Shown here in pieces: positions 10,562-54,426 of a stretch of 64,000 nt of DNA. The notes below the pieces were generated by a model. The model searched no databases and was not told the origin of the DNA. It worked only from the letters and a program-made list of their open reading frames with translations. The DNA is from Xanthobacteraceae bacterium (GTDB taxonomy: Bacteria; Pseudomonadota; Alphaproteobacteria; Rhizobiales; Xanthobacteraceae). Each line of letters opens with the position of its first letter. Within the stretch, counting starts at the first letter, position 1. The stretch is taken from the NCBI GenBank assembly GCA_022844485.1, contig JALHLQ010000003.1, positions 41,921-105,920 on the forward strand, in the 5' to 3' direction. Position numbers and translations under genes: made by a program.

Positions 10562-11701
10562 CTATCGTGTGCGTTGTTGCCGGTTGCGCTCAAAATACGG
10601 GAGTAGAACCTCCATTTGCGGACGGTCCTGACCGTTTACGGGCTGTAGCGAATAGTAGTAATCGCCCCACCAAGGCCCGGCGGCCCACCAGGTCCAACCG
10701 AGCCAGACGTCACTGTTGTTTTCGATGAATTCCAACATCGTCTTCCCCTCGGTCATGTCGTGCGGCGTTCCCAGAAACGCGAACTCGCCGAGGAAGAGCT
10801 TGAATCCTTTGGAGCGTGCCCAGCGCGTGACTTGCGAGAGCACCGTCGCGCCTGATCCGGGAACTGCAGGCCCGCCGAAGCTCGTCGGCGGCGCATCGAG
10901 ATACTGATGCACTTCGAAGGCAAAGTTATTTCCGGGATCGTGAAAGCCCGCCATAACGGCCGCGTTGTCGGTGCTTACGAAATCCTTGGCGCCGCCCCAG
11001 TGGTTTCCCATGACGAGGATCTTGTTGGTCGCGCCGGTATCGCGGATCGCCTTTGCCGCGACATTGGCGCTGCGCAGCCATTGCCGCGTCGGCATTTCGT
11101 GCGGTTCGTTCATCAGGCCGAACCAGACCAGCGGATTGCCCTTGAATTCATTGGCGAGACGCCGCCACACGTCGGCAAAGGCATCATCCGGGAGCGACGG
11201 AGTACCAAGAAGGTCGACGACGACCTTGTCTTTGGTCACTGTCTTGCGACGTGCATAATTGTGAAGGTCGAGGATGGCCACAAGGCCGCGGCCCGTGATC
11301 TCATCGACCAAACCGCGAATGTCTCCGAGATACTCCGCGTCAAGCGGTCCGCGCAACGCGTGCTGCAGCCGCTCCCACCGGAAATCGAGCCGGATGACCG
11401 TCGCCCCCTTATCTGCGAAGTAGGCCACGTCTTCGGCGCTGGGCACCACGTAATTGACAAACCGCTTGCCGGGAAAGGCATTGTCGCCGAAGCCGAGGCC
11501 TGCAAGGTTGACTCCGTAAAGTTGCGTCGGTCGGCCCGGCGCAGAACCAGGTACCGGCCCGACACGCGCTGCCTTCGAAGGTCCGTCAGCCGAATCCAGG
11601 CGTTCGTGTTGAGGCGCACCCCCCGAGGAGGCAGAAGCGGCCATCCCCGGGACCGTCTGCAAGACCATCGTAAAGGCAACGAGCCCGATCAGCGCTTTCA
11701 T
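10562..11701 (-). CDS. Secreted glycoside hydrolase family 5 (endoglucanase-like EPS glycanase)
   Basis: ATG at 11701. Sec signal peptide MKALIGLVAFTMVLQTVPGMAASA. GH5 catalytic motifs FGLMNEPH (acid/base) and FLGEFA (nucleophile). Confidence 0.85.
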   Translation of the reverse strand: MKALIGLVAFTMVLQTVPGMAASASSGGAPQHERLDSADGPSKAARVGPVPGSAPGRPTQLYGVNLAGLGFGDNAFPGKRFVNYVVPSAEDVAYFADKGATVIRLDFRWERLQHALRGPLDAEYLGDIRGLVDEITGRGLVAILDLHNYARRKTVTKDKVVVDLLGTPSLPDDAFADVWRRLANEFKGNPLVWFGLMNEPHEMPTRQWLRSANVAAKAIRDTGATNKILVMGNHWGGAKDFVSTDNAAVMAGFHDPGNNFAFEVHQYLDAPPTSFGGPAVPGSGATVLSQVTRWARSKGFKLFLGEFAFLGTPHDMTEGKTMLEFIENNSDVWLGWTWWAAGPWWGDYYYSLQPVNGQDRPQMEVLLPYFERNRQQRTR

Positions 11702-11831
11702 AACCACGCTCAGGTTGGGTACTTGGCCAGCCCGCCCACACCGTTGCTATAAGAACGTCTAAGGGCTGATTGTTCCTGCCGGGGCCGGCTGCCGGACCAC
11801 GCCTTCGCCCGCGGAACCGGACGGAGAGAAA

Positions 11832-11860
11832 GGGGGCCGCCGTGCGGCAGCCCCCCTTTT
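11832..11860 (-). terminator. GC-rich hairpin flanked by A and T runs downstream of the RTX-GH5 gene
   Basis: aaa-gggggccgcc-gtgc-ggcagccccc-ctttt, a 10-bp stem with one mismatch, about 30 nt after the stop at 11887. On the minus strand it is followed by UUUCUCUC. Confidence 0.4.
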
Positions 11861-11886
11861 GACAGCGACGTTGTGAGGACGAGGCT

Positions 11887-14037: not shown

Positions 14038-14504
14038 GATGTCTTGCTCCACTCTTTACGCTGAACACAACACGAGAATGCAATCTGCCGAAAGCGACTG
14101 ATTGCAGAACTGCGGGTGCGTGTGCCACCCCAAAACAGCGGAAAGATGCAGGGCCTGGGGCGAGATTGAGGCGGAGAGGCTGTCCAAGTTCGAATTCCGG
14201 GATGAGCCGCAGTGCAGGCCACAATACGATCCGACAAGTATTCGTGACCCGGCTAACGAGCAGGAGCGCATGGCACAGCAAGGTCGCCCGCGACTCCTCG
14301 GAATAGGCAGTCCTCGGCACAAGTTGGCACAGAGGCCCCCCTGGAACTCAACTCAATGCACTCGCGGCCTGAACTGCGGGGGCCATGCAACAATGCAGCG
14401 GCGGCCGCGTTATTCGAGCAGGTTGGGGCTGTTTTCCTCGTGCGGGGAGATGGAGTTCCATGCCGAAGACACCGCAGCCGCTTCAGTGAGAGACGAATTG
14501 GGGC

Positions 14505-16079
14505 GTGCTCGGCTCGCGAAACCCCGCTAATGTATTTGCGATCATCGTGCCGCGCACCGTTCTCAACACAATCGCAAACGGACTTGGCCTTGGCGCCAAC
14601 GCGACCTTTGGCGTCCTCTTTACAGCGATTTACTTTCGTCTGCTGGGAGGCGAACATTACGGCCTGGTCGGCTTCTGCCTCACGCTCCTTCTCGCGAGCG
14701 ACTTCTTCGCCGCCATGGGCCTCGGCCGCGCTACCGTGCGCGAGCTGGCTCGGCGGGAGCACTCTGCATCGCTCGCGCAAGAGATGCGCGACGCCCTTCT
14801 CACCTTGCAACTCATCCATGTCGGGCTTGCGCTCGTCTGCGGTCTCGTTCTCATCATCGCTTCGGGCTGGATTGCCGAGCATTGGTTAAGACGGGACGAG
14901 GTTTCTCTTGAGCAGGCGCGGACCAGCATCCTCCTGCTCGGAGTGCTTGTGGCTTGTCAGCTGCCGCGCGAGATCTGCCGGGCCGCGCTGACCGGGCTAC
15001 AGCGCCAGGTCTTGGTGAATATGCTCGGCGCAAGCTTCGTCTTGGTGCGCGGGATCTTTACAATCGTAGCGCTTACGACGTTCGGGCGGGATGCGATTGT
15101 CTTTTTGAGCGCGCAAATCTTCGTCTCGATCGTCGAGACATTGTGGTTCGTCGTCGCCGCGTGGCGGCGAATGCCGCCGGGATCCCGTCAGCCGCGCTTC
15201 GACCCGAAGATAGTGAAGGAGACCTGGGCCTTCGCGACGACCGACGGATTAGTGATGATGGCGAGCGCCGCCATGATGCTGGGCGATCAGCTGATACTAA
15301 GCACGATTCTGCCGCTTGATCTCTACGGCGGCTATGTTCTGGTGATCCGGATTACCGACGTTATCGCACGCGGGGCTCTGCCGTTTACCTACGCGTTTTT
15401 TCCCCACCTCACCGATCTGGTTGCGCGAGGCCGGCATGAAGAGCTCGCTCACGATTACCACCGCGTCAGTCAGGTGGCGTCCTCGATTCTCATTCCGTTT
15501 GCGTTCCTCGTTGGGCTGTTTCCGGCTGAAATCCTTCGGCTGATCTCCGGCGACGCCTCCATCACTGCAGCCTTGGCAAGTGTGCTCGTCTTGCGAACGT
15601 TTGGAAACCTGTTCGCCAGCCTGCAATATCTGCCCCAAGTGCTGCAGCTCTCGATGGGCGCGACGCTGCCGGTACTGATAATTACATTAATCGTGGCGCC
15701 GATTTATCTCATCGGCACGATGATGCTGACGCCGATCTACGGCGTGATCGTACCCGCTGCGCTATGGTGTGGGCTGCACGCGGCGACGATCTTTCCGATG
15801 CTGATCATCACGCATCGCATGATCCTGCATGGTCAAGCTTGGGTCTGGACAAAAAAGGCCCTCATCGCCCCCACGCTTATCAGCGTGTGTGTTGTCACGC
15901 TTGGTCGGCTTACTTCTCCAGCGACGATCTCCTGGACGTCAACGACGCTTTGGCTCGCGGCGACAGGACTGTTGACGACGCTGGCGATCCTCTGGGCATC
16001 GCCAGATCTTCGTGCTCTGGCCGGCGCCGGGATTCGCAAGCTGACCCTACGCCGGCAAGTCCGCCGTCGGGCCGATTGA
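14505..16079 (+). CDS. Polysaccharide flippase (Wzx/MOP superfamily), copy 1
   Basis: GTG at 14505, start uncertain. About 12-14 TM helices with the typical N-terminus ...NTIANGLGLGANATFGVLFTAIYFRLLGGEHYGLVG. Confidence 0.8.
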   Translation: MLGSRNPANVFAIIVPRTVLNTIANGLGLGANATFGVLFTAIYFRLLGGEHYGLVGFCLTLLLASDFFAAMGLGRATVRELARREHSASLAQEMRDALLTLQLIHVGLALVCGLVLIIASGWIAEHWLRRDEVSLEQARTSILLLGVLVACQLPREICRAALTGLQRQVLVNMLGASFVLVRGIFTIVALTTFGRDAIVFLSAQIFVSIVETLWFVVAAWRRMPPGSRQPRFDPKIVKETWAFATTDGLVMMASAAMMLGDQLILSTILPLDLYGGYVLVIRITDVIARGALPFTYAFFPHLTDLVARGRHEELAHDYHRVSQVASSILIPFAFLVGLFPAEILRLISGDASITAALASVLVLRTFGNLFASLQYLPQVLQLSMGATLPVLIITLIVAPIYLIGTMMLTPIYGVIVPAALWCGLHAATIFPMLIITHRMILHGQAWVWTKKALIAPTLISVCVVTLGRLTSPATISWTSTTLWLAATGLLTTLAILWASPDLRALAGAGIRKLTLRRQVRRRAD

Positions 16080-16117
16080 TGTTAGCTTGAGCTTTGACGG
16101 CGTCACCGCGACGCCGC

Positions 16118-17116
16118 TCAACCCAAGTTGCTCGCCCCTCGCTCAGCCAAGGAGGTTTTGTTGCCGGCAGACACATCAACACCATCAAAGGAGAAGGAAT
16201 TGAGTTCCGATTTGCGGCTGCTCACGCCCGCCGGGGCACGCGGTTGAGTCGTCGCGCGCAGCGCCATGAGATCGGGATAGCGAAGATGTGTAACGAGCGT
16301 TCCCCCGCCCATGACCGGAATATGGTGGTTCTTCGCTTTCGGTCCCTCCCCGGCCAGATGAACAATCGCCAGTTCGCGGGTGGCATCCGCGGTCAAGAAG
16401 CACTGCCGTTCTGGATCCCATACAGGCGAAGCCATTCCGACAATGTAGTTGAATTCAGATGGCAGGATCTCGACTGGCAAGATGTCCTGATAGACGGCCT
16501 GATTGAAGGCGAACTGGTCGTGGGGGTAGGTTGTCCGGGTTCGCCTTATCGCGGCGAGAGCCCGGTTCTGCCATGCTGACCAGTGGGGGGCGTCAACATG
16601 AATTGCGAACACTCCGACATTGAAATGCGGCTTCCGGTAGAGCCAAAGACCGCGCCCCCAGCCGTAACCCCTGACGAAGGTCTTGAGGACTCGGAAAGCG
16701 TGCCGCCGCCCAATGCGATAATCCGGGTCGATCTCGGCGACCACGGCCGCCGAGTTGTTGACCGCGCCGCTGACGAACTTGTCCAAGGCATCGCCGCGCT
16801 GCAGCCATGCGTCGCAATCCATCCAAACATACACGTCGTATCCCGGGAAGTACTCCGGCATGAAAAGCCGGCTTTCATACGCTTGATTTCCCCACCCCTC
16901 ACGGCAGTGGATGCCGAATTTCGACGTGGGCTGCACGATGAACTCGGCGCGGTCGCGCAAGATCGTCCGCTCGGTCTCGGATAGACCGAAGTCGAAAATC
17001 CCGAGCGGAATGCCTCGCGCGGTGCGATGTTCGCGCAACGAGTCGGTCATCTCCAGTAGAAGCTGAAAATAATCGGAATTGGCCCCCGTCACGATGATGC
17101 TTCGCGGCTGTTTCAT
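16118..17116 (-). CDS. Putative GT-A fold glycosyltransferase (GT8-like, DxD)
   Basis: ATG at 17116 preceded by GAGGAAAC. SIIVTGANSDYFQLLL... and YVWMDCDAW (DxD) resemble nucleotide-diphospho-sugar transferases. Confidence 0.55.
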   Translation of the reverse strand: MKQPRSIIVTGANSDYFQLLLEMTDSLREHRTARGIPLGIFDFGLSETERTILRDRAEFIVQPTSKFGIHCREGWGNQAYESRLFMPEYFPGYDVYVWMDCDAWLQRGDALDKFVSGAVNNSAAVVAEIDPDYRIGRRHAFRVLKTFVRGYGWGRGLWLYRKPHFNVGVFAIHVDAPHWSAWQNRALAAIRRTRTTYPHDQFAFNQAVYQDILPVEILPSEFNYIVGMASPVWDPERQCFLTADATRELAIVHLAGEGPKAKNHHIPVMGGGTLVTHLRYPDLMALRATTQPRAPAGVSSRKSELNSFSFDGVDVSAGNKTSLAERGASNLG

Positions 17117-17132
17117 GTTTCCTCGACGAAGT

Positions 17133-17174
17133 TCCACGATCCTGACACCTCGATCCACGATCCTGACACCTCGA
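17133..17174. repeat. Perfect 2 x 21-bp tandem direct repeat upstream of the GT8-like gene
   Basis: tccacgatcctgacacctcga occurs at 17133-17153 and again at 17154-17174, 17-58 bp upstream of the ATG at 17116. Confidence 0.95.
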
Positions 17175-17585
17175 ATGGATTAAGCCCAGCCAGAGCGAAA
17201 GGCACACGAGCAGCGTTGTGGATTCCACAGACAGGCGTCCCCCCGACTGCACCCTCTCATGCTGTAACCCTGCCCCAACTCAACGTCACAGCACGAAGCA
17301 CCGTTCCAGGTCCGAGGCACGCGTAACCGGATGGGAGGCAAGGGCTGCGACATTGCAACCAAACAGGCCGTCTGGGAGTTTCCGAATGCTGGAATCACTC
17401 TCGTCATGGAAGCTTGTGAAAGCCGCAAGCGTGACTGTTCTTCCGTTGAGCAAAACCTGCTTTTCTGAGTTGCATGCTGGTGAGGGCGAGTACTCGCGCC
17501 AGCCGGCCCGCCAGAGCGATCTGCCTCCAGGCGTGCGGCAGCCCGCCAGTTCCAGCGTTCGGCAGCGGGACGGCGGCAGTGTTTC

Positions 17586-19337
17586 ATGGAATTTTGCGAG
17601 TCGTTCCTCAAGAGGCGAACAGGCCCGATGCTAGAGGCGAGAAACAGCGACTTCGCTCGGCATGCGTCGTCTACTCCGGCGGATTCGGGGCTTTCTGGCG
17701 ATCCCTCGGCGGTTCCGCTGCAGCTTTCGAGCCTATGGCGACATAAGGGAACAATCGGTTTGATTGTCCTCGCCTCGGTCATTCTGGGGTTTCTGATCTC
17801 GTCCGTACGGCCGGCGAACTACACGGCCGTTGCTCGCCTGCTGATCGACAACCGCCAACTCCAGCTGTCGCAAAAGGACGTCGTCTATGCCCAGTCGGCG
17901 GTCGACCTCCCGTTTGTTCAGAACCAGCTTGAGCTCCTCAGGTCGGAAAAAGTGGCTCTGAAGGTGATCGACGATCTCAAACTGGCGGCCGATGAGGAGT
18001 TTGCGGGCGCGCGCGGCCTGCTTGGTTTCGGACCTGTCGGCGTTGGCGAGCGTGGTGTGGAAGCGGACAGTTCCGAATCGGCGCGCGAGGCGGAAGTGCT
18101 GAAGCGCCGCCTTGCGCTACAGCACCTGCAACAGAACGTGTCGATCGGACGCGTGGGAGAGAGCTACACGCTCGAGGTGCGCTTCACGGCGCGCACCCCC
18201 AAGAAGGCCGCCGCTGTCGCCAACGGGATCGTGAACTCCTACATGCAGGATCTCATTGCCGCCAACAATGAGAAAGCCCAGAGCGCGACGGCCTGGCTGC
18301 GCGACCGGCTGCGGGAACTCGGACCCAATGCGCGGGTGATCACCGAAGCGGCGCCGCCGGTGCGCCCCGATGGACCGGGAACGACGAGCATTCTCGCCGC
18401 ATCCGCCATTCTTGGAATGATGTTAGGAGCGGCATGGGCCTTTGCCCGGGATCTGCTGGACCGGAGCATACGGACGCCGGGCGCTGCGGCCGCGCTGATC
18501 GGTGCGGAATGTTTCGGCCTGTTGCCGAAGGTCTCGCGGCAGGGCAAGTGGGCAGGCTTCGCCAAGCGCCATTCGGCAAATCGTCCGGCACGGACCTTCC
18601 ATCTCCTCGAAGCGCCATTGGCCATCGGCGTTTCACAGCCGCTTTCCCTGTTTTCGCAAACCATGACGCGGCTGCGGACGTCGCTGGTGCGGGAACAAGG
18701 CGGCCTGGTTAGGGCGATAGGGGTCACATCGGCTCTTCCCGGCGAAGGCAAAACCACATTGGCCGTCAACCTGGCTCTCTCGCTGGTTCACGCAGGCAAG
18801 CGCGTCCTGCTCGTGGATTCCGCGAGCTATGAACCCGACCTGTCACGCATCTTCGCCCGTGAGGCGAAAGCCGGGCTGTTAGACATCTTGCAGGGTTCCG
18901 TCGACATGAGCGAAGCCGTGTGGCGCGACCTCGACACCTCTCTGCACTTTCTCCCGCTCGGGCGGCAACCGCGCCCGGGACACGAAATTTGGTCGGAGCG
19001 CTTCGAGACCTTCCTGGAACAGGCCTTTGCAAGCTACGATTTCCTCGTCTTTGACCTTCCCCCGCTCGCGCCGGTATCGGACGTCCGCGCAGCCGCGCAC
19101 AGCCTGGATGCGCTGCTGCTCGTCATCGAGTGGGGCCACACGCCGGCGCCCACCATCGATGCCGGCCTTGCCATGTCCGGTCCCGCTAAGTCGAAGCTCG
19201 CGGGATCGGTCTTGAACAAAGCCGCTGTCAAGCTGCTGGTCCAAGACGCAGTTCGGCACGGATGGTTTGGCCGGAAGCGACGATATTCGGATCATGCCGG
19301 TGTCGCTGCAAGCGACCGGAAAGGCGCCGGAGAGTGA
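17586..19337 (+). CDS. Polysaccharide co-polymerase with C-terminal P-loop (ExoP/Wzc/GumC-type chain-length determinant and BY-kinase-like domain)
   Basis: Wzz-type N-terminal TM helix, a coiled-coil periplasmic region and a second TM helix. Walker A SALPGEGKTTLAVNLA, A' VLLVDSA and B YDFLVFDLPP. Start is ATG 17586 or ATG 17628. Confidence 0.85.
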   Translation: MEFCESFLKRRTGPMLEARNSDFARHASSTPADSGLSGDPSAVPLQLSSLWRHKGTIGLIVLASVILGFLISSVRPANYTAVARLLIDNRQLQLSQKDVVYAQSAVDLPFVQNQLELLRSEKVALKVIDDLKLAADEEFAGARGLLGFGPVGVGERGVEADSSESAREAEVLKRRLALQHLQQNVSIGRVGESYTLEVRFTARTPKKAAAVANGIVNSYMQDLIAANNEKAQSATAWLRDRLRELGPNARVITEAAPPVRPDGPGTTSILAASAILGMMLGAAWAFARDLLDRSIRTPGAAAALIGAECFGLLPKVSRQGKWAGFAKRHSANRPARTFHLLEAPLAIGVSQPLSLFSQTMTRLRTSLVREQGGLVRAIGVTSALPGEGKTTLAVNLALSLVHAGKRVLLVDSASYEPDLSRIFAREAKAGLLDILQGSVDMSEAVWRDLDTSLHFLPLGRQPRPGHEIWSERFETFLEQAFASYDFLVFDLPPLAPVSDVRAAAHSLDALLLVIEWGHTPAPTIDAGLAMSGPAKSKLAGSVLNKAAVKLLVQDAVRHGWFGRKRRYSDHAGVAASDRKGAGE

Positions 19338-19338
19338 C

Positions 19339-19593
19339 ATGCGCAGACTTTCTCTGCTGTCCTGCTGGGTCCTGTGTGTTTTCATTGCAGCGCTGATGCC
19401 GACCGGCGGCTGATCGCCGAGATCGAGGATCGCGCAAGCATCGCCTTTCCGCCCGAACTCAGGGCGCGGCAATCTGAGACCGCGGTGGCTGAGCTTTTCC
19501 GAGAGCAGAATCTTTTGTTGGAAACAAACCGAAACGCGATCGCCGCCAGCAAGAGCTCGCGATCGCCGCCAGCAAGAGCTTTCGTGAGCAGAT
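19339..19593 (+). pseudogene. Remnant of the exoF/wza-like export gene (5' 70 nt fused to an internal segment)
   Basis: 19339-19408 matches 21166-21235 and encodes MRRLSLLSCWVLCVFIAALMPTG. It then jumps to the sequence homologous to 21687-21851, with a TGA at 19411. It also contains a roughly 23-nt internal tandem duplication (gcgatcgccgccagcaagagct twice). Confidence 0.75.
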
Positions 19594-19740
19594 GATGCAT
19601 TGTGGTGCGACCATCGAACTGCCCCATCGGCTCCCGTCGTCGACGGCAGTGGAGTAACGGGATGAGCCTTCACGCGCCGGACTCCGGCTTGCGACGCACG
19701 CTTTATCTTATTCGGCGGGGATCAACGGACGGACCAACGC

Positions 19741-20640
19741 CTATTCAACAGGGAGGCGCGGGCGTCGGACCGGATCGGCGGGTGCGACGCTTTCGCCTGC
19801 AGCGCCGACAACCTTCTGCAGCCAAGGAAACCTGAACAGCGCATGCTGCACCGCGTGCCGCAGTTCCATCCGAAGGAGGGCGCGACGAAAACCGGCGCCT
19901 GGAGGAACGAAGATGCGCTTGCGGATCTGCGCGACGTAGGGGTGGGCTGCGAACCAGCGGCCCAGGAAGCTCGGCTGCCGGGCCGAAAAATTGCGGTGGT
20001 AGTACAGGTAGTCGTGGTCTTCCCGCTCCATCAGGAACTCCGGAACTTGAAGGATGTCCCCCCGGGTCAGAATCAGCGCCAAGACGACATAATCGAAGCC
20101 GTAGACATCGATGTCGTCGGGAAAGCTCTGTCTGAGAGGCTCGGTTCGAAACACCGAGTAGAGCCACGAGGCTTCCGACGGCCTTTCCAGGAACGAAACC
20201 AGCCGGTGGGGCATTGTACCTTTGAGGGGCGAAGTTCCGCGGGCCGACCGTCGTCGCCCCTCTGGCGAAATCATGACCACACCGGAAATGCTGCCGACCG
20301 CGTTAGGATTTCCGGCAAGCGAAGCGAGGTTCCGTTCGACGAATGTCGGGGACCACTGATCGTCATGGCAAGCCCACATGAAGAAAGGCGTAACGGCCTC
20401 ATTGAGGACGAAACGAAAGTTCCCGCAGATGCCGAGATTCTGCCGTTGCCTGAATACGGTGATCCGACTGTCTTGGGCCGCGAATTCCTGGCAAGCGTCG
20501 ACGGTGCGGTCGGTCGAGCAATTGTCAGATATGAGGATTCGGATGTCGCGATGAGTTTGCGCAATGAGCGAGGAAAGCGCAACGTGGATCTGCTTGGCGC
20601 CGTTCCGGACGGGCATGCCGATCGTGACTGCTTGACTCAT
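19741..20640 (-). CDS. Glycosyltransferase family 2
   Basis: ATG at 20640. N-terminal GT-A motifs VTIGMPVRNGAKQIHVALSSLIAQTHRDIRILISDNCSTDRT and CHDDQW (DxD-like). Confidence 0.85.
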   Translation of the reverse strand: MSQAVTIGMPVRNGAKQIHVALSSLIAQTHRDIRILISDNCSTDRTVDACQEFAAQDSRITVFRQRQNLGICGNFRFVLNEAVTPFFMWACHDDQWSPTFVERNLASLAGNPNAVGSISGVVMISPEGRRRSARGTSPLKGTMPHRLVSFLERPSEASWLYSVFRTEPLRQSFPDDIDVYGFDYVVLALILTRGDILQVPEFLMEREDHDYLYYHRNFSARQPSFLGRWFAAHPYVAQIRKRIFVPPGAGFRRALLRMELRHAVQHALFRFPWLQKVVGAAGESVAPADPVRRPRLPVE

Positions 20641-20901
20641 GCACCGGTCTCATCCCGGAAGAACATCATCCGGGCTCTGCGCAACCGACGGAGCTCCTCC
20701 GATCTCAGGCTAACAGAAGGACAAGAATCGTGCAAAGCGCTCGCGCCCGGTTCCTCTCCTTCCGCCCTGCTGACGAGTAGTGCGCAAGCGACTGATTGTC
20801 GGTCACGCTCGAGCTTCCGGCCTTCCATGGTCGGAAGACGGTTGCTGAAGCCGTTCGAACGGAGACGTCGGGCGCCATGCTAGAGTCACAGAAGCATGCG
20901 T

Positions 20902-21164
20902 TATCCGACGTCCGCGCGGCCGCGCACAGCCTGAATGCGCTGCTGCTCGTCATCGGGTGGGGCCACACACCGGCGCCCACCATCGATGCCGGCCTTGCCA
21001 TGTCCGGTCCCGCTAAGTCGAAGCTCGCGGGATCGGTCTTGAACAAAGCCGCTGTCCAACTGCTGGATCGGGACGCAGCTCGGCGCGGATGGTTTGGCCG
21101 GAAGCGACGATATTCGGATCATGCCGGTGTCGCTGCAAGCGACCGGAAAGACGCCGGAGAGTGA
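20902..21164 (+). pseudogene. Orphan 3' fragment of the exoP-like gene
   Basis: 20902-21164 is about 95% identical to 19075-19337 and encodes ...LSDVRAAAHSLNALLLVIGWGHTPAP...SDRKDAGE*. It lacks the 5' 1.5 kb of the gene. Confidence 0.75.
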
Positions 21165-21165
21165 C

Positions 21166-22455
21166 ATGCGCAGACTTTCCCTGCTGTCCTGCTGGGTCCT
21201 GTGTGTTTTCATTGCAGCGCTGATGCCGACCGGCGCCGTGGCAAACTACAAGCTCGGTCCCGATGACCGGCTGATGGTGCGCGTTTCGGAATGGCCGGAT
21301 CTGACCGGCGAATTTTCCATCGGCGCCGATGGAAGAATTTCCCTCCCAATTGTCGGCGATGTCCCCGCATCGGGCCTGCAGCTCGGTGAACTTTCAAGCG
21401 CCATCGCCGAGGCGTTGCAGCAGCGGGCGAATTTGCGGACGTTGCCGAGCGTGATCTTAGAAATGAGACAATACCGGCCCTTCTACATCTTGGGCGACGT
21501 GCAGCGGCCGGGAGAATACCCGTTCCGACCAGGACTCACGGCGCTGCAGGCCGTGAGCATTGCGGGCGGCTATTTCCGATTCAGCGATCCCGGCCTGCTT
21601 CGGCTCGAACGCGACGTCTTGGCGGGTCGCGGTCAGCTTCGCGCGCTGGCGCTCAAGGCGGACCAGCTTGCGGCTCGTCGAGCGCGGCTGATCGCCGAGA
21701 TCGAGGATCGCGCAAGCATCGCCTTTCCGCCCGAACTCAGCGCGCGGCAATCCGAGACCGCGGTGGCTGAGCTTTTCCGAGAGCAGAATCTTTTGTTGGA
21801 AACCCACCGAAACGCGATCGCCGCCGCCAGCAAGAGCTTTCGTGAGCAGATCAAGCTTTTCGAAGACGAGATTGCCTCATTGAGGCTGCAGATCGAGACG
21901 GAGAAGCGTCAGCTGCGAGCCGTCCAGAAGGAAACGGACGATATGCAATCCCTTGCTTCGCGCGGGCTCGCGCAAACGTCCCGCCTGGTGCTGCTCGAGC
22001 GAACGGTGGCACAGATCATCGGGCAACAGCAGGCGCTGGAGACGACGATCGTGCGGGCGCGCCAGAACATCAGCCAGACGGAGCAGAAGATCAACGATTT
22101 GCGCAGCACGCGTCGCCAGGCGGCCACCGCGGAGTTGGAAAAGACCAATGCTGAATTGAATGACACGCATCAGCAGATTGCCACGGCGGAACAGTTGCTC
22201 GTCGAAGCCGAAGTGACGGCTCCGACCGCCATCGCCGAGCGCTTGCGGAACACGCAGCGGGAGGCAAAAATCTTCGTCACACGAAAGGCGGGAGTCGCAT
22301 CGCAAAGCATCGAAGTGGACGGCTCGGCGTTGGTTGAGCCAGGCGACGTCGTTCGTGTCGACCTTCAGCCCTTGCCGCAGCGGCCGGCCGTACAGAGCTC
22401 GAACGCGCGCCCGTTGTCGGTCACCTCGACGACCGACAGACCCTCGCTGCAATGA
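21166..22455 (+). CDS. Outer-membrane polysaccharide export protein (ExoF/Wza/GumB family) with a long coiled-coil C-terminus
   Basis: ATG at 21166 overlaps the fragment stop (TGACATG). Signal peptide MRRLSLLSCWVLCVFIAALMPTGAVA. Poly_export-type motif YKLGPDDRLMVRV and SLBB-like FYILGDVQRPGEYPF. Confidence 0.85.
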   Translation: MRRLSLLSCWVLCVFIAALMPTGAVANYKLGPDDRLMVRVSEWPDLTGEFSIGADGRISLPIVGDVPASGLQLGELSSAIAEALQQRANLRTLPSVILEMRQYRPFYILGDVQRPGEYPFRPGLTALQAVSIAGGYFRFSDPGLLRLERDVLAGRGQLRALALKADQLAARRARLIAEIEDRASIAFPPELSARQSETAVAELFREQNLLLETHRNAIAAASKSFREQIKLFEDEIASLRLQIETEKRQLRAVQKETDDMQSLASRGLAQTSRLVLLERTVAQIIGQQQALETTIVRARQNISQTEQKINDLRSTRRQAATAELEKTNAELNDTHQQIATAEQLLVEAEVTAPTAIAERLRNTQREAKIFVTRKAGVASQSIEVDGSALVEPGDVVRVDLQPLPQRPAVQSSNARPLSVTSTTDRPSLQ

Positions 22456-22466
22456 CGGCGTCGAAA

Positions 22467-23231
22467 TCAGGATGAAGGACCCTTCCGGCTGACGCGTTCT
22501 TTCATCAAGGCGAGCGCTACCATCAGCGCGTCGATGGTATAACGGCGCCACAAACGCGAAGGCTCGTTGCCCAGGCGGTAGAGCCACTCGAGCCTCGTTT
22601 TGCGAACCCACGCCGGAGCACGCGGGACGGCGCCGGCGACGAAATCGAAAAGCGCGCCGACGCCGATCAGCAGCGGGGCCTGCAGGCGCGCGGCGTGCCG
22701 CAGGATCCAAAGCTCCTGCTTCGGATTGCCAAGCGCGACGAGAACAATGTCCGCGCCGGATTCGTTGATGCGGTCCACTAACTCGGTGGCGAGCGTATCG
22801 GCGATGTAGCCGTGACTGGTCCCGGCTATTCGGACCCGATATTGTGCCGCGAAGGTCGAAGCCGCTTTGGTGACGACCTCGGGCTTTGCTCCGAACAGAA
22901 ACACTTTTGTATGCGGCGGAACGGCGGCGAGGAGCGCGGCCGTGAAGTCGGTTCCGTTGAGATTTTCCGGAAAACGGGCGCCGTGGATCGCCTTTGATAC
23001 GAGATCCAGTCCGACCCCGTCGTTGAAGATGACGAAGTGACGCGAGAGTTCGGCGGCCAAGCCGAGCCGATGGGCCACGCTCAACAGGTTCAGATTGGCG
23101 AAAGCCACGGCGGTCTTCTCCCGCTTCGCCAAGCGTGTCAACAAATATGCCAGCGCGTCCGCGCGCGAGGCTGATGCGACTGCGACGCCGAGAAATTGCC
23201 GCACCGGAAAGCGGGGGTCAGGGGAGAGCAC
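22467..23231 (-). CDS. WecB/TagA/CpsF-family glycosyltransferase (GT26)
   Basis: GTG at 23231 overlaps the upstream GT4 stop by 14 nt. Motifs DGVGLDLVSK, LGNPKQELW and LEWLYRLGNEPSRLWRRY. Confidence 0.85.
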   Translation of the reverse strand: MLSPDPRFPVRQFLGVAVASASRADALAYLLTRLAKREKTAVAFANLNLLSVAHRLGLAAELSRHFVIFNDGVGLDLVSKAIHGARFPENLNGTDFTAALLAAVPPHTKVFLFGAKPEVVTKAASTFAAQYRVRIAGTSHGYIADTLATELVDRINESGADIVLVALGNPKQELWILRHAARLQAPLLIGVGALFDFVAGAVPRAPAWVRKTRLEWLYRLGNEPSRLWRRYTIDALMVALALMKERVSRKGPSS

Positions 23232-29592: not shown

Positions 29593-30915
29593 TCACCGCT
29601 GAGCTTTCGCCGCCGCGGGCGCGGGCCTCCAAATGCTTGCCTGCTCAAGGCGCAGCCGGTCGCAAAGGCGATCCTTCGGCAACTCGACGTCTGCGTAGGT
29701 CAGCACCGTATCGCGCTTGATATTGCGGATCACGCGGCAGCCAACGGCGATGCCGATCGGCAAGAGATCCTGGGCGGCGGCGACATCGGCGTTTTCCGCC
29801 AAGCCATAAGCCGTGTAGCCACCAAGCTGATCGATGACCTCGCCGGCCTCGAGGTCGCGTTTGGCGGCGGCCACGACGTCCACCTGGGGCGCGCCGCACG
29901 GGGCGATGGTTGCGTCATGGAATAATGCAGCCCGCGCGATCGTCGTCGGGACCTCAAAATGGCAGAGATGATAGGGCGTATAGAAGCAATAGAGGGGACC
30001 GGAGCCAAGCTTATAGAGATTGAGATAATGCCTTTGGGTCTGGTTCTCGATCGTCCCGAGCACGAACACGCCTGGTGACGGAGCGGCACCGACCACGTAG
30101 TCCACAACACCCGGCCCTGCCAGCAACTCGTCAGCCGAAAACAACCGGGCTGCCTCTTCGATCGGCGTGCCCGCCGGAACCGTAAAGCCGTGCATACCGC
30201 GCCTGGCGACACGCATTCCGGTCGCGTTCGCAACAATCGCCTGCTCGAAGGAAATCTTCGTTCCATCGGCGAAGGATGTGACCATGCCGGGATTCTGGCC
30301 CCATCGTTGCGCGAAGTCACGCTGTGTGGTTGGCGTGCGGTAGGGATCATGCAGTCCCTTGATGTTGCCGCAGAGAACGGGACGGACGCCGATCCCTTTC
30401 ACGAACCGATACAGATTCATGATCACTCCCGGCTGATCGCCATCGGTGTTCGTGAAGATGACCCCGGCGGCATCGGCTTTCATCTTCAGGATCGGCCCGA
30501 GCGTCCCGTCGAGCTCCGCATTCATGAGCACGACGTGCTTGCGGCTCTCGATCGCCGCCAGCAAGGCCGGGAGAACCGGTTCGATGGCGCCGGTGACGTC
30601 GAGGAGCACGTCGATGGCATCGGCCTCCGCCAGCAGTCGCGGCTCGCTCGTCACCACCCCCCGCCCGGCCCGAAGGGCGGAGCGGACGGCGCTGGCGGTC
30701 GAGCATTCGACCACATTGGTTTCGCCCGCGTCGCGGAATGCCCGGCCGGCATTCTCGACCGTTCTATTGGCGATGCCGACGACGCGGATGCCCGGAGAAG
30801 CCGTTGCGACCTGCAGCGCGATCCCGCGCGCCATGAAACCCGCGCCGATCATGCCGACTCGGATCGGCGAATTCTTGCTCGCTTGCCGTGCCAGAGCCGT
30901 ATCGACGATGATCAT
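29593..30915 (-). CDS. NAD(P)-dependent oxidoreductase, homoserine-dehydrogenase-like with C-terminal SAF domain (COG4091 type)
   Basis: ATG at 30915. Rossmann motif VGMIGAGFMARG. Long C-terminal region ending ...EAGEVIDQLGGYTAYGLAENADVAAAQDLLPIGIAVGCRVIRNIKRDTVLTYADV, which is SAF-like. Confidence 0.7.
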   Translation of the reverse strand: MIIVDTALARQASKNSPIRVGMIGAGFMARGIALQVATASPGIRVVGIANRTVENAGRAFRDAGETNVVECSTASAVRSALRAGRGVVTSEPRLLAEADAIDVLLDVTGAIEPVLPALLAAIESRKHVVLMNAELDGTLGPILKMKADAAGVIFTNTDGDQPGVIMNLYRFVKGIGVRPVLCGNIKGLHDPYRTPTTQRDFAQRWGQNPGMVTSFADGTKISFEQAIVANATGMRVARRGMHGFTVPAGTPIEEAARLFSADELLAGPGVVDYVVGAAPSPGVFVLGTIENQTQRHYLNLYKLGSGPLYCFYTPYHLCHFEVPTTIARAALFHDATIAPCGAPQVDVVAAAKRDLEAGEVIDQLGGYTAYGLAENADVAAAQDLLPIGIAVGCRVIRNIKRDTVLTYADVELPKDRLCDRLRLEQASIWRPAPAAAKAQR

Positions 30916-30990
30916 CTCGCGCGTCCTTGTGGATGTCGGGGACGGCTTGCGCTACAAAGCAATGGGGGAGAATGGAGGTCGGATCGGATC

Positions 30991-31539
30991 ATGATTTTCA
31001 CTCCTGCCACTCTCCCCGGCGCTGTCCTGATCGACATCCAAAGAAAGCACGACGAGCGGGGCTACTTTGCGCGCACGATGTGCCGCGATGAATTTGCCAG
31101 CCGCGAACTGGCCGCCGATTTCGTCCAGTCCAATCACTCCTTCAACCGGCGCGAAGGGACTTTGCGGGGCTTGCACATGCAGGCGAGCCCGCACGCCGAG
31201 GTGAAGCTCGTTCGTTGCGTCCGCGGAGCGATCTATGACGTGATCGTCGATCTGCGGCCCTCGTCGCCGGCCTATTTGCGCTGGGAGGGTTTTGAACTCT
31301 CCGCCGACAATGGTCGAATGCTTTATGTCCCGGAAGGCTTCGCCCACGGCTTCCAGACGCTGTGCGACGACACCGACGTCACCTACCAAGTCTCGCACCC
31401 TTATGTCCCCGGCGCGGAGATCGGTGTCCGCTACAACGATCCGACCTTCAACATTGCCTGGCCGCTGCCGGTCGCCGTCATTTCGCCGAAGGACGCGTCC
31501 TGGCCGGACTTCAGGCAGATCGAAGCGATGTCGGCGTGA
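30991..31539 (+). CDS. NDP-4-keto-6-deoxyhexose 3,5-epimerase (RfbC/RmlC cupin family)
   Basis: ATG at 30991, with GGAGG 12 nt upstream. DERGYFART..., GTLRGLHMQ, KLVRCVRGAIYDVIVDLR and YVPEGFAHGFQTL are RmlC-family motifs. Confidence 0.85.
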   Translation: MIFTPATLPGAVLIDIQRKHDERGYFARTMCRDEFASRELAADFVQSNHSFNRREGTLRGLHMQASPHAEVKLVRCVRGAIYDVIVDLRPSSPAYLRWEGFELSADNGRMLYVPEGFAHGFQTLCDDTDVTYQVSHPYVPGAEIGVRYNDPTFNIAWPLPVAVISPKDASWPDFRQIEAMSA

Positions 31540-32585
31540 TCGGGCAAGTCGACCCAGCGCAAGTCTTGGCCGAGCTGGCGGCTGTCCTTGAGATACCGAA
31601 GCTCGGCGAGCCGCGTGAAAGGCGGCGCTTTGAACACCTCCTCCGTCAGTCCGACTCGCTCGAAGATCAGGCGAAGCTGCGCCGCGCCGTGCTCGAGCGA
31701 CCAGCGGCACTTGAACTCAGGCATATGCGCGCGGATCTTTTCGAAAGAGACCCGGTAGCTTCGTGAGTCGCCATCCGAATTTCCCAAGCTGAGGCGGCAA
31801 TCCGGAAAAGTCTCGTTCACGACTTCGGCAATTTCGCGGATGCGATAGTTCTGCTCGTCGGCGCCGACATTGAATGCCTCGCCCGCGACCGCCTCGTGCG
31901 GCGCCTTGAGGGCGCAGAGAATGGCCTGGCAGAGATCGTCGACATGCACGAGCGGCCGCCAGGGCGAGCCGTCGCTGGTCATGCGGATTTGTTTCGTCGT
32001 CCAGGCCCAGCCGGCGAGATTGTTCAGCACAAGATCGAACCGCTGACGCGGACTGGCGCCGAAGGCCGTCGCGTTGCGCAGGAAGACGGGAGCGAAGGTT
32101 GGAGTGGCCAGGGTCTTCACGTCCCGTTCGACAAGAACCTTGCAGCGGGCATACGCGGTTTGCGGATTGACGGAGGATTCTTCAGTCCGCGCATCGCTCC
32201 CGCCCGCACCGTAGATGCTGCAGGAGGAGGCATAGACAAATCGGCGCACGCCCGCTTCACGGCACAGCCGTGCCAGCCTGACCGAAGTGTGATGGTTGAT
32301 CTCGAAGGTCAGGCCTTGATCCTGCTCGCCGAGCGGATCGTTGGAGAGTTCCGCGAGGTGAATGACGGCATAGGCACCGTCGAGGTCCTCGCGCGCGATT
32401 TCGCGCGTATCCTTGGTCAGCACCATCGGACGCGTTCGCCGATCGTCGAACAGCCACCCTCGACGGTAGAACCCGGTATCGATGCCCACGGCGGCATATC
32501 CGGCATCGAGAAGCTTGGGCCCGAGCACGGCGCCGATATAGCCGTCCGCCCCGGTAAAGATGACTTTCAAGGGACGGGGCGTCAT
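31431..32585 (-). CDS. Extended SDR, NAD-dependent sugar epimerase/dehydratase
   Basis: ATG at 32585 overlaps the rfbF stop (ATGA). Motifs GADGYIGAVLGPKL, SSCSIYG and YARCK (YxxxK). The C-terminal roughly 40 aa overlap the rfbC-like gene on the other strand. Confidence 0.8.
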   Translation of the reverse strand: MTPRPLKVIFTGADGYIGAVLGPKLLDAGYAAVGIDTGFYRRGWLFDDRRTRPMVLTKDTREIAREDLDGAYAVIHLAELSNDPLGEQDQGLTFEINHHTSVRLARLCREAGVRRFVYASSCSIYGAGGSDARTEESSVNPQTAYARCKVLVERDVKTLATPTFAPVFLRNATAFGASPRQRFDLVLNNLAGWAWTTKQIRMTSDGSPWRPLVHVDDLCQAILCALKAPHEAVAGEAFNVGADEQNYRIREIAEVVNETFPDCRLSLGNSDGDSRSYRVSFEKIRAHMPEFKCRWSLEHGAAQLRLIFERVGLTEEVFKAPPFTRLAELRYLKDSRQLGQDLRWVDLPDHADIASICLKSGQDASFGEMTATGSGQAMLKVGSL

Positions 32586-33424
32586 CAGTGCACCGGGTTC
32601 GGCACGGGAACGGCCGAGGGCGCAAGGGTGGGCATTTGGATATCATGCTGCGTATTCCAGACGCGCCACGGCGGGTCGCCGCTGTCCCAGAGATCCTGCA
32701 GCAGCGCCTTGTCGCGCAACGTATCCATGTTCTGCCAGAACCCGGCATGGCGAAAAACGGCCAATTGCCCGGCGGCGACGAGTTGCTGCATCGGCTCGTT
32801 TTCCCACACCGTATCGTCGCCGCTGACGAGATCAAGCGCGCAGGGTTCGAGAACGAAGAAACCACCATTGATCAGATGGCCGTCATCGGTGTGCTTTTCG
32901 CGGAAGCTTTCCGCGCGCGGCTGGTCCTTCGCGATGCCGAGAACCCCGTAGCGCCCGCGCTGCTGCACGGCGGTCACCGTGGCCATCGCTCCTTCTTTGC
33001 GGTGAAAAGCAACGAGCTTGCCGATGTCCAAGTCGGTGACCCCGTCTCCGTAGGTGAGGCAGAAAGTCCCGTCGAGGTAGTCTTTGACGCGCTTGATCCG
33101 CCCGCCGGTCATGGTCGAGATGCCGGTGTCCACCAGCGAGACGCGCCAAGGTTCGGTCCGTGACCGATTGAATTCGACCCGGTTGGTCTCCAGGTCGATC
33201 GTGACATCGGAGTTCCTTTGAAAGAACTCGAGAAAATACGACTTGATGAGATCGCCTTTATAGCCGCAGCAAATCACGAAGTCGTTGAAGCCGAAGCTCG
33301 AATAGATCTTCATGATATGCCAAATAATCGGGCGCCCTCCGATCTCTACGAGCGGCTTCGGGATGACGCGCGTCTCCTCGCTGAGCCGCGTGCCATAACC
33401 GCCAGCCAGAATGACAACTTTCAC
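32585..33424 (-). CDS. rfbF: Glucose-1-phosphate cytidylyltransferase
   Basis: GTG at 33424. VKVVILAGGYGTRLSEETRVIPKPLVEIGGRPIIWHIMKIYSSFGFNDFVICCGYKG is nearly canonical RfbF. Confidence 0.9.
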   Translation of the reverse strand: MKVVILAGGYGTRLSEETRVIPKPLVEIGGRPIIWHIMKIYSSFGFNDFVICCGYKGDLIKSYFLEFFQRNSDVTIDLETNRVEFNRSRTEPWRVSLVDTGISTMTGGRIKRVKDYLDGTFCLTYGDGVTDLDIGKLVAFHRKEGAMATVTAVQQRGRYGVLGIAKDQPRAESFREKHTDDGHLINGGFFVLEPCALDLVSGDDTVWENEPMQQLVAAGQLAVFRHAGFWQNMDTLRDKALLQDLWDSGDPPWRVWNTQHDIQMPTLAPSAVPVPNPVH

Positions 33425-33660
33425 GATGGAATGCCCCAGACCATGTTCATCAGGGCAACCGGGTCTCCCAGCGTTTGTTCCTGGTTCCGTCTTTTTTCTT
33501 GGGAATTCCATGCTGCCAGGCCCTCGCAGGTGCGGCCGGCGGCCAACCTGTGCTAACCCTAGGCGACAAAGAACGGGCCCCGCGTTGCTTTGCCGGAATT
33601 CGGAACTATATTGCAGCGCAACCGCGGGCGTTCTGGCCCGCGGTATGCATTTAGGCCGCC

Positions 33661-53934: not shown

Positions 53935-53966
53935 CGGGTGGCTCCCTGTGCGAACACAAGTATATG

Positions 53967-54380: not shown

Positions 54381-54426
54381 GTACAATCTGTCACCCATGT
54401 CTCCGGGTCGGACACACGAGCCGCCT

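What the first reader, a model, noticed from the sequence alone, without database searches (positions are those of the whole stretch)
19075..21851. Segmental duplication of the exoP-exoF junction (about 95% identical) brackets a GT2 gene and leaves two pseudogene stubs
Copy A spans 19075-19408 and copy B spans 20902-21235. Each is 334 nt and I counted about 15 mismatches by hand. Each covers the last roughly 260 nt of the exoP-like gene, the TGACATG junction and the first 70 nt of the exoF-like gene.

Copy A is attached to the intact exoP-like gene. It continues into a dead exoF stub that reaches a TGA after 24 codons. That stub then jumps, across a gcg(g) microhomology, to sequence matching 21687-21851 of the intact gene, an internal deletion of about 450 nt. 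The stub also carries a roughly 23-nt internal tandem duplication.

Copy B is an orphan exoP 3' stub attached to the intact exoF-like gene. The unique 1.3 kb between the copies (19594-20901) carries a minus-strand GT2 gene with visibly lower G+C.

This looks like acquisition of a GT2 cassette by recombination with a diverged allele of the same locus. The direct repeats are long enough for RecA-mediated excision. That would delete the GT2 gene precisely and regenerate a clean exoP-exoF junction, giving a potential on/off switch for one sugar addition in the EPS.
Basis: seen in the sequence. Interest (0 to 1): 0.65.

Follow-up and report, generated by a model that had tools for sequence, protein, structure and literature searches.

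The report
Duplicated gene junction flanking inserted glycosyltransferase
A sugar-adding enzyme gene sits between two tightly linked polysaccharide-export genes, and a copy of their junction on each side keeps both genes whole; this is a tidy but ordinary gene-cluster rearrangement, with no sign of a genetic switch.

Summary
Window 19072-19408 and 20899-21235 are direct repeats: 337 nt, 16 mismatches, no gaps. Copy A ends the intact exoP-like gene and runs into a dead exoF stub. The stub has 24 codons, a 448-nt deletion, a 23-nt tandem duplication and a 3-nt loss. Copy B is an exoP 3' stub fused to the intact exoF-like gene. Between them lie 1305 unique nt carrying an intact GT2 gene on the minus strand.

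Comparative data are new. The closest relatives, and 33 of 84 ExoF-relative loci in all, have exoP directly followed by exoF with nothing between. The GT2 segment is therefore an insertion into an ancestrally clean junction. In five of five independent lineages with enough flanking sequence, GT2 homologues sit next to a CDP-sugar operon. In this window that operon lies 12 kb away, so the GT2 gene is displaced from its usual place.

Best reading: a fixed duplicative insertion whose junction duplication preserved both export genes, with the redundant stubs now decaying. The "foreign allele" origin is unresolved. The "lower G+C" claim is not supported. The "on/off switch" has no support: only a one-way deletion is possible, and no population data exist.

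The parts
17586..19337 (+). Intact exoP-like gene (polysaccharide co-polymerase with a P-loop ATPase domain, 583 aa).
   Evidence: Pfam Wzz 34.8 bits and AAA_31 34.6 bits. It is 70.5% identical over the full length to the L001 orthologue. PGEGKT Walker A motif is present.
19072..19408 (+). Repeat copy A: the last 266 nt of exoP, the TGAcATG junction and the first 70 nt of exoF.
   Evidence: Self-BLASTN: 337 nt, 16 mismatches, 0 gaps against copy B.
19339..19413 (+). Dead exoF 5' stub ORF (24 codons plus TGA).
   Evidence: Translation.
19406..19593 (+). Internal exoF fragment of the stub. It matches 21684-21851 of the intact gene, carries a 23-nt tandem duplication (19535-19580) and lacks one GCC.
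19594..20898 (.). Unique inserted segment (1305 nt): 147 nt downstream flank, the GT2 gene, and 258 nt upstream flank.
   Evidence: No other copy in the window, and no match for the flanks anywhere searched. Absent from the L001-L004 orthologous loci.
19741..20640 (-). Intact family-2 glycosyltransferase gene (299 aa).
   Evidence: PF00535 at 83.2 bits. Full length against 15 homologues and keeps all 59 invariant residues. Homologues are linked to a CDP-sugar operon in 5 of 5 lineages.
20899..21235 (+). Repeat copy B: an orphan exoP 3' stub (20899-21164) plus the junction and first 70 nt of the intact exoF.
   Evidence: The stub lies in a 95-aa ORF (20877-21164) that gene callers report as P0241.
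21166..22455 (+). Intact exoF-like outer-membrane polysaccharide export gene (429 aa). Its Shine-Dalgarno sequence GGAGAG lies inside the duplicated exoP 3' end.
   Evidence: Poly_export at 63 bits. It is 79% identical over the full length to P0002/L001. Shine-Dalgarno sequence seen.
21236..21683 (+). Segment of the intact exoF that is deleted from the stub (448 nt).
29593..33511 (-). CDP-sugar operon (DRL_cat oxidoreductase, inverted RmlC-like isomerase, dehydratase/epimerase, glucose-1-phosphate cytidylyltransferase). It is the likely source of the sugar donor for the GT2 enzyme.
   Evidence: (TIGR02623 at 396 bits against a cut-off of 300).

Best explanation
This is a fixed duplicative insertion in a polysaccharide gene cluster.

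**What happened**
- The ancestral locus had exoP immediately followed by exoF. The stop and start are 1 nt apart, and exoF's ribosome-binding site lies inside the exoP coding sequence.
- A 1.3-kb segment carrying a GT2 gene and its upstream region was placed between them by illegitimate recombination.
- In other lineages this GT2 gene sits beside the CDP-sugar operon.
- The event came with a duplication of about 952 nt of the junction: the last 266 nt of exoP plus the first 686 nt of exoF.

**Why the duplication matters (inference)**
- It is what made the insertion tolerable. The left copy completes exoP. The right copy gives exoF its native translation start and upstream context.

**What followed**
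- The two redundant pieces became pseudogene stubs and have decayed. The exoF stub lost 448 nt and 3 nt and gained a 23-nt duplication. The exoP stub collected replacements at conserved residues.
- The GT2 gene has stayed intact and probably adds a CDP-activated deoxy-sugar to the polysaccharide repeat unit.

**Excision**
- Homologous recombination between the 337-nt repeats could delete the GT2 gene. That would be a rare, one-way loss, not a switch.

**Shown versus inferred**
- Shown: the architecture, the ancestral clean junction, the integrity of GT2, its displacement from its usual neighbourhood, and the stub lesions.
- Inferred: the order of events, the selective reason for the duplication, the sugar donor, and the stability.
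For: - **Architecture:**
- **Clean junction in relatives:** L001-L003 and L004, colinear downstream through WecG, GT4, the flippase gene and the GINT1_N-like gene. Thirty-three of 84 ExoF-relative loci have exoP directly upstream on the same strand. The gap from the end of the alignment is at most 306 nt, and none has an intervening gene.
- **GT2 is functional:** it keeps all 59 family-invariant residues at full length, while the stubs nearby carry 3 indels.
- **Link to the CDP-sugar operon:** GT2 homologues lie 180-360 nt divergently from the cytidylyltransferase/dehydratase/isomerase/DRL_cat operon in 5 of 5 independent lineages. The window has that operon at 29.6-33.5 kb, abutting typA.
- **Decay in place:** outside 19230-19258, all polarisable exoP differences are derived in the stub. 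They include D>N, E>G and G>D at residues that match L001 in the functional copy.
- **Ribosome-binding site:** the exoF Shine-Dalgarno sequence lies inside the exoP 3' end in both copies.
- **Composition:** the insert matches the rest of the cluster.
- **No mobile-element features:** none found in the unique segment.
Against: - No close relative (ExoF above 79% aa identity) exists in any collection, so the age and history of the insertion cannot be traced.
- Taken over all sites, derived changes are split 8 (stub) to 6 (functional copy). Four or five of the latter fall in a 13-nt patch of the functional exoP. Simple decay does not predict this, whereas patchy heteroduplex repair with a diverged allele would.
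- Four of the 5 exoF-part substitutions are at third codon positions. That looks more like divergence between two functional alleles than neutral decay (P about 0.045, small sample).
- The source of the 1305-nt segment and its flanks is unknown.
- No remnant of GT2 is seen next to the CDP-sugar operon.
- The promoter serving exoF after the insertion is not identified.
Confidence: 0.55

Rival explanations
1. First reader's model. The GT2 segment entered by homologous recombination with DNA from a roughly 5% diverged strain. The mechanism would be an 'ends-in' linear fragment, or a circular (Campbell-type) intermediate carrying the exoP-3'/exoF-5' junction. The stubs are then the donor's alleles, and the 5% divergence predates the insertion.
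For: - The repeats differ by 4.7% with no indels.
- Overall polarisation is near even, 8 to 6.
- Eight of the 16 mismatches cluster in 29 nt (P = 0.0006). In that patch the functional copy is the derived one, as patchy mismatch repair of a heteroduplex could produce.
- Four of the 5 exoF-part differences are at third codon positions.
- An insert flanked by direct repeats of a contiguous target is exactly the product of single-crossover or ends-in integration (established genetics).
Against: - It only moves the origin of the two illegitimate junctions into an unseen donor.
- Outside the patch, the stub carries all 6-7 polarisable exoP changes. Three are replacements at residues shared by the functional copy and L001 (D also conserved in L004), which is unexpected for a donor allele that was still functional.
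- Composition does not mark the insert as foreign.
- No second allele of this species is present in any database searched.
Confidence: 0.3
2. Assembly artefact. The contig joins two co-existing strains, or mis-resolves a repeat, so the tandem arrangement does not exist on one molecule.
For: - The source is a single 216,770-bp contig seen once, possibly from a metagenome.
- The copies share identical runs of up to 87 nt, which could confuse a de Bruijn graph.
- No read data are available to me.
Against: - Three novel junctions, a 448-nt deletion joint and a perfect 23-nt tandem duplication must all exist in real reads.
- The two copies differ at 16 positions, so they are not a collapsed or overlapped repeat.
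- Both flanking genes are complete, in frame and colinear with L001 on either side.
- A chimera would have to switch strains exactly so as to keep both genes intact.
Confidence: 0.07
3. A recombinational phase-variation device. The repeats are maintained to allow frequent RecA-mediated excision of the GT2 gene, giving sub-populations with and without one sugar in the polysaccharide.
For: - Direct repeats of 337 nt include perfect runs of 87, 65 and 55 nt. These exceed the minimal length for RecA recombination (general knowledge).
- There is a precedent in Haemophilus influenzae type b. Recombination between duplicated cap-locus copies, one with a truncated bexA, causes capsule loss at 0.1-0.3% (summarised in PMC6535587).
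Against: - Excision destroys the only GT2 copy (no paralogue), so it cannot be reversed without re-acquisition.
- The repeats have diverged and the stubs decayed without homogenisation or loss, implying rare recombination or selection against it.
- No recombinase gene or inverted repeats are present.
- No variant lacking the 1827 nt was found.
Confidence: 0.05

Closest known systems
Insertion-duplication (Campbell-type single-crossover, or 'ends-in') integration products
   Same: The insert is flanked by direct repeats of one contiguous stretch of the target. Because the duplicated stretch spans the end of one gene and the start of the next, both genes stay intact. The product can revert by homologous recombination between the repeats.
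   Different: There is no vector, plasmid or phage backbone, and no att site or integrase. The cargo is a single chromosomal-type glycosyltransferase gene. The repeats are 5% diverged and one is heavily eroded, so this is an old natural event rather than a recent integration.
Haemophilus influenzae type b cap locus duplication with truncated bexA (Kroll, Hopkins and Moxon 1988, as cited and summarised in PMC6535587)
   Same: There are direct repeats inside a polysaccharide locus. One copy of an export-related gene is truncated. Recombination between the repeats changes the polysaccharide phenotype in one direction.
   Different: There the repeats are whole locus copies bounded by IS1016, and recombination abolishes export, causing capsule loss at 0.1-0.3%. 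Here the repeats are 337 nt, no IS is present, the export genes would survive, and only one transferase would be lost. No frequency is known.
Mosaic O-antigen, capsule and exopolysaccharide gene clusters with gene remnants (general knowledge of Salmonella/E. coli rfb, Klebsiella K loci and pneumococcal cps loci)
   Same: Accessory glycosyltransferase and flippase genes are gained or lost between conserved export and assembly genes, leaving pseudogene remnants. The cluster has lower G+C than the rest of the genome. The window also carries a second extra segment of about 3.0 kb (wzx-like plus GT8) relative to L001.
   Different: Remnants in those loci usually come from replaced genes or IS activity. 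Here the remnants are duplicates of the still-intact neighbouring genes, and they bracket the insert as direct repeats.
Transformation-triggered or spontaneous tandem duplications (merodiploids; Johnston et al. 2013, PMC3784515)
   Same: A partial duplication leaves one intact and one redundant copy of each gene, and the redundant DNA is free to change. A duplication of the junction followed by insertion into the redundant part would give this structure.
   Different: Those duplications span 100-900 kb between IS-derived repeats and are unstable. This one is under 1 kb, carries foreign cargo at the join, and appears fixed.

Membership tests
Glycosyltransferase family 2 (PF00535) | Match to the family profile above the curated cut-off. 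| tested here: met
   83.2 bits against a cut-off of 23.3, residues 6-134.
Glycosyltransferase family 2 (PF00535) | Acidic catalytic motifs (D-x-D type) conserved. | tested here: met
   S38-D39-N40...T43-D44 and H92-D93-D94 are invariant or nearly invariant across 16 homologues, including the window protein.
PCP-2a / ExoP-type co-polymerase with tyrosine autokinase | N-terminal Wzz domain plus a C-terminal P-loop ATPase with Walker A. | tested here: met
   Wzz 34.8 bits (cut-off 25.5) and AAA_31 34.6 bits (cut-off 27). PGEGKT motif.
PCP-2a / ExoP-type co-polymerase with tyrosine autokinase | Score above the curated cut-off of the exopolysaccharide transport family model, and a C-terminal tyrosine cluster. 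| tested here: not met
   TIGR01005 scores 194 bits against a cut-off of 411.7, and TIGR01007 scores 87 against 108. Only one Tyr occurs in the last 40 residues. 'exoP-like' is therefore a description, not a membership claim.
OPX / ExoF-Wza type polysaccharide export protein | Poly_export domain followed by an SLBB domain. | tested here: met
   Poly_export 63.1 bits (cut-off 28). SLBB 26.7 bits (cut-off 27, borderline). Homologues are named ExoF by JGI.
Duplicative (Campbell-type) insertion | The insert is bracketed by direct repeats that together reconstitute one contiguous target sequence, and the target is uninterrupted in relatives. | tested here: met
   Clean junction in L001-L004 and 29 other loci.
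Duplicative (Campbell-type) insertion | An identifiable circular or vector-like donor, or a site-specific recombination system. | tested here: not met
   The unique segment encodes only the GT2 enzyme. It has no integrase or transposase, no terminal inverted repeats, and no match to plasmids.
Mobile element or gene cassette (IS, transposon, integron cassette) | Transposase or integrase gene, terminal inverted repeats, a short target-site duplication, or attC. | tested here: not met
   None found in 19594-20898. The 'target duplication' is about 952 nt, far too long for transposition.
Phase-variation switch (reversible on/off) | Reversibility of the DNA change. | tested here: not met
   Excision would remove the only GT2 copy in the window. 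This is inferred from the structure, not measured.
Phase-variation switch (reversible on/off) | Both states present within populations at high frequency. | not testable with these tools
   No reads are available, and no second instance of this organism exists in the protein, genome or metagenome collections.

The most novel reading that the evidence does not exclude
The junction duplication may be functional design rather than a scar. Duplicating the boundary of two translationally coupled export genes would create a neutral 'landing pad' that lets an accessory transferase, with its own divergent promoter, be wedged between them. The retained 337-nt repeats would then give the population a standing, RecA-dependent route to shed that one sugar modification, for example under phage or host pressure. 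This would be a one-way polysaccharide-variation cassette, analogous to Haemophilus capsule loss but sparing export.
Probability: 0.1. Interest if true: 0.5.

Novelty: new member of a known kind. Interest (0 to 1): 0.25.

Why it matters
If correct, this is a clear natural example of how a gene can be inserted between two genes that leave no room for it. Their stop and start are 1 nt apart, and the downstream ribosome-binding site lies inside the upstream gene. Duplicating the junction solves the problem.

It also shows a glycosyltransferase moved away from the sugar-nucleotide operon it is otherwise always next to.

For annotation, it matters in two ways. The 24-codon and 95-codon ORFs are relics, not genes. 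The repeat is also a place where assemblies and strain comparisons can go wrong.

It does not open a new question, and it does not reveal a new kind of system.

Tried and rejected
- **Plasmid collection.** A near search of 17000-23000 found nothing. A distant search gave only 100-240-nt hits at 67-77% in rhizobial WecG/exoF genes. This is not a known plasmid locus.
- **Exact-sequence look-ups.** The window's ExoF and GT2 proteins are not on record.
- **First genome-contig scan.** The single ExoF protein found no relative. The alignment-based rescan found 80 loci, all at 47% identity or less. No close species is present in GTDB representatives.
- **Search for a second allele or strain.** A search with the last 130 aa of ExoP found only the window's own stub ORF, P0241. 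A 26-mer from the 87-nt identical block has no match in JGI metagenome contigs.
- **Origin of the unique flanks (19594-19740, 20641-20898).** tblastx and blastn against the window and all fetched loci gave nothing above chance. Alignment of the GT2 upstream region with the GT2/cytidylyltransferase intergenic regions of five homologous loci showed no shared motif.
- **Promoter and terminator scan of 17000-22600.** No sigma-70-like site was found, and terminator-like sites were below expectation. How exoF is transcribed remains open.
- **Rfam.** Only two tRNAs in the whole window, and nothing in the region.
- **Lower G+C as a mark of foreign origin.** Rejected.
- **GT2 paralogue or remnant elsewhere in the window.** None found, including next to the cytidylyltransferase gene.
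- **Simple tandem duplication of a larger unit that already contained GT2.** Considered and rejected as needing several extra deletions and a lost second GT2 copy.

Full report
**1. The observation**

Self-comparison of the window confirms the repeat. 19072-19408 and 20899-21235 align over 337 nt with 16 mismatches and no gaps (95.25%, E = 4e-152).

Fifteen mismatches lie in the last 266 nt of the exoP-like gene and one lies in the first 70 nt of the exoF-like gene. The longest perfectly identical runs are 87, 65, 55 and 28 nt.

- **Copy A** ends the intact 583-aa exoP-like gene (17586-19337). It continues through TGAcATG into a 24-codon ORF that stops at 19411-19413.
- **The stub then jumps** across a 3-nt GCG microhomology to sequence matching 21684-21851 of the intact gene. 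The 448 nt at 21236-21683 are missing, which is not a multiple of three.
- **The stub also holds** a perfect 23-nt tandem duplication (19535-19580) and lacks one GCC triplet.
- **Copy B** is an orphan exoP 3' stub (20899-21164) joined to the intact 429-aa exoF-like gene (21166-22455).
- **The 1305 nt between** (19594-20898) are unique in the window. They carry an intact 299-aa family-2 glycosyltransferase gene on the minus strand (19741-20640; PF00535, 83 bits).

The one descriptive claim that fails is "visibly lower G+C". The unique segment is 60.7% G+C, the 31st percentile of equal-sized windows in the polysaccharide cluster. Its GC3 (0.71) is typical of the cluster's range of 0.69-0.76.

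**2. The surroundings**

The region is part of a polysaccharide cluster of about 30 kb. It contains:

- a priming sugar transferase;
- two GH5 glycanases, one with RTX repeats;
- two Wzx-like flippase genes;
- GT8, GT4 and WecG-type transferases;
- a GINT1_N-like protein;
- a CDP-sugar operon at 29.6-33.5 kb.

The cluster ends at typA. The window comes from a single 216,770-bp contig. It matches no plasmid. The best GTDB relatives of its ExoF protein are Hyphomicrobiales at 47% identity or less.

**3. Relatives show a clean junction**

The closest ExoF relative is P0002 (79% aa). It lies on three Logan contigs (L001-L003). There the exoP-like gene (574 aa) is followed 1 nt later by the exoF-like gene, and then by WecG, GT4, the flippase gene and the GINT1_N-like gene, in the same order as in the window.

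DNA colinearity places L001 1820-3484 on window 17691-19349 and L001 3215-4682 on 20907-22374. The window therefore has 1827 extra nt at exactly this point. L004 (54% aa) also has the two genes abutting.

Among 84 loci encoding ExoF relatives, 33 have the exoP homologue directly upstream on the same strand. The gap is at most 306 nt from the end of the alignment. None has a gene between them, and none has a close GT2 homologue nearby. The GT2 segment is therefore an insertion into an ancestrally uninterrupted junction.

Relative to L001, the window also carries a second extra segment of about 3.0 kb (wzx-like gene 14505-16079 and GT8 gene 16118-17158) on the other side of exoP.

**4. What the GT2 gene is**

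It is full length and keeps all 59 residues that are invariant across 16 family members, including the acidic motifs. Its nearest homologues are only 59% identical.

I found five independent homologue lineages with enough flanking sequence: L005; L006-L008; L090; L091/L092; and L093/L094 from a Roseomonas genome. In all five, the gene lies 180-360 nt divergently from a four-gene operon. That operon encodes a nucleotidyltransferase, a 4,6-dehydratase-type epimerase, an RmlC-like isomerase and a DRL_cat oxidoreductase.

The window has this operon at 29593-33511. Its nucleotidyltransferase scores as glucose-1-phosphate cytidylyltransferase (TIGR02623, 396 bits against a cut-off of 300). However, the operon abuts typA, and the GT2 gene is 12 kb away.

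By inference from this conserved linkage, the GT2 enzyme transfers the CDP-activated deoxy-sugar made by the operon. It has been displaced from its usual position. No GT2 remnant is left beside the operon.

**5. Why a duplication**

The exoP stop and the exoF start are separated by one base. The exoF Shine-Dalgarno sequence (GGAGAG, 4 nt before the ATG) lies inside the exoP coding sequence. A plain insertion at this boundary would damage one gene or the other.

In the structure seen here, the left copy completes exoP. The right copy supplies exoF with its native initiation region and 266 nt of upstream context. The original duplicated target would have been about 952 nt: 266 nt of exoP plus 686 nt of exoF. 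Part of the exoF portion has since been deleted.

The reasoning that the duplication is what made the insertion viable is inference. The 258 nt upstream of GT2 is about the size of the divergent promoter region seen in homologous loci. It now faces exoF, but no promoter could be identified.

**6. Foreign allele or decay in place?**

Both copies are far closer to each other than to any orthologue: 95% against about 72-75% nt.

I polarised the 16 differences with L001, using L004 as a second outgroup.

- **Overall split.** Eight are derived in the stub copy B, six are derived in copy A, and two are ambiguous.
- **Clustering.** Eight of the 16 differences fall in 29 nt at 19230-19258 (P = 0.0006).
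- **Outside that patch.** Every polarisable exoP difference is derived in the stub. These include D>N, E>G and G>D where the functional copy matches L001 (and L004 for the first). This is what relaxed selection on a relic predicts.
- **Inside the patch.** The functional copy is the derived one (D>V, R>Q, A>V), while the stub keeps the L001-like residues. Simple decay does not explain this.
- **exoF part.** Four of five substitutions are at third codon positions.

The three indels in the exoF stub are unambiguous decay. I conclude that much of the divergence arose after the insertion. A contribution from a diverged donor allele, or from a conversion patch, cannot be excluded. No conspecific sequence exists in the collections to settle it.

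**7. The switch idea**

Recombination between the repeats is physically plausible, because the perfect runs exceed the minimal length needed by RecA (general knowledge). It would leave one hybrid junction with exoF intact.

Depending on the crossover point, exoP would inherit some stub substitutions. The event would remove the only GT2 copy, so it is a loss and not a switch.

The repeats have neither been homogenised nor recombined away while the stubs accumulated lesions. GT2 has remained intact meanwhile, which points to stability under selection.

The nearest precedent is capsule loss in Haemophilus influenzae type b. There, recombination occurs between duplicated cap copies, one with a truncated bexA (PMC6535587). 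That case involves whole-locus repeats, IS1016 and a measured 0.1-0.3% frequency. None of these applies here.

**8. Artefact?**

I cannot examine reads. Against an artefact:

- three novel joints, a deletion joint and a perfect small duplication must all exist in real DNA;
- the copies differ at 16 sites;
- both flanks are colinear with L001 and leave both genes intact.

I give this rival about 7%.

**9. Verdict**

The feature is real and neatly organised. It belongs to a known kind: rearrangement of a mosaic polysaccharide cluster, with the topology of an insertion-duplication.

The new information here is:

- the demonstration of the ancestral clean junction;
- the displacement of the GT2 gene from its conserved partner operon;
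- the mixed signal on the origin of the repeat divergence.

Interest is modest.

Noticed in passing
window 30936-31573: The RmlC-like sugar isomerase gene (about 30991-31539) is on the plus strand, inside an otherwise minus-strand CDP-sugar operon. In L005, L006, L090, L091 and L093 all four genes are co-oriented, so this is a gene-sized inversion. It is flanked by an imperfect 18-nt inverted repeat (30936-30953 and 31556-31573, 78%). The neighbouring dehydratase ORF runs about 41 codons past its homology into the inverted segment.
   Followed up: partly
window 14171-17691: Relative to the closest relative L001, the window has about 3.0 kb extra between the GH5-RTX glycanase gene and exoP. The segment carries a Wzx-like gene (14505-16079) and a GT8 gene (16118-17158). 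L005 has a homologue of this Wzx-like gene directly after its GT2 gene.
   Followed up: partly
window 17133-17174: A perfect 21-nt tandem duplication (2.0 copies) spans the predicted start of the GT8 gene.
   Followed up: no
window 19230-19258: Eight of the 16 repeat mismatches cluster in 29 nt (P = 0.0006). In this patch the intact exoP carries the derived residues (D>V, R>Q, A>V) while the stub keeps the ancestral-like ones. This could be a conversion patch or a multi-nucleotide event, and remains unexplained.
   Followed up: partly
window 50047-50208; also 37417-37519 and 1745-1785: A 56-nt unit is repeated 2.9 times at 98% identity. Related copies (85-98%) occur at two other intergenic sites. 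It looks like a dispersed REP-like intergenic repeat family.
   Followed up: no
window 53956-54034 and 54426-54501: An AT-rich 24-nt repeat (3.3 copies) lies next to tRNA-Thr(CGT), with several small unassigned ORFs at 51.6-54.4 kb. This may be the remnant of an integrated element.
   Followed up: no
window 20877-21164: The exoP stub sits in an open 95-codon ORF that starts at an ATG in the unique segment and ends at the native TGAcATG before exoF. Gene callers report it as a protein (P0241). Whether its translation helps exoF initiation is unknown.
   Followed up: partly
window 10562-14052: Two GH5 'cellulase' genes sit in the polysaccharide cluster. One is fused to RTX calcium-binding repeats and a serralysin-type C-terminal domain, which suggests a type I-secreted polysaccharide glycanase. 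GH5 genes also accompany the GT2/CDP-sugar module in L005.
   Followed up: no
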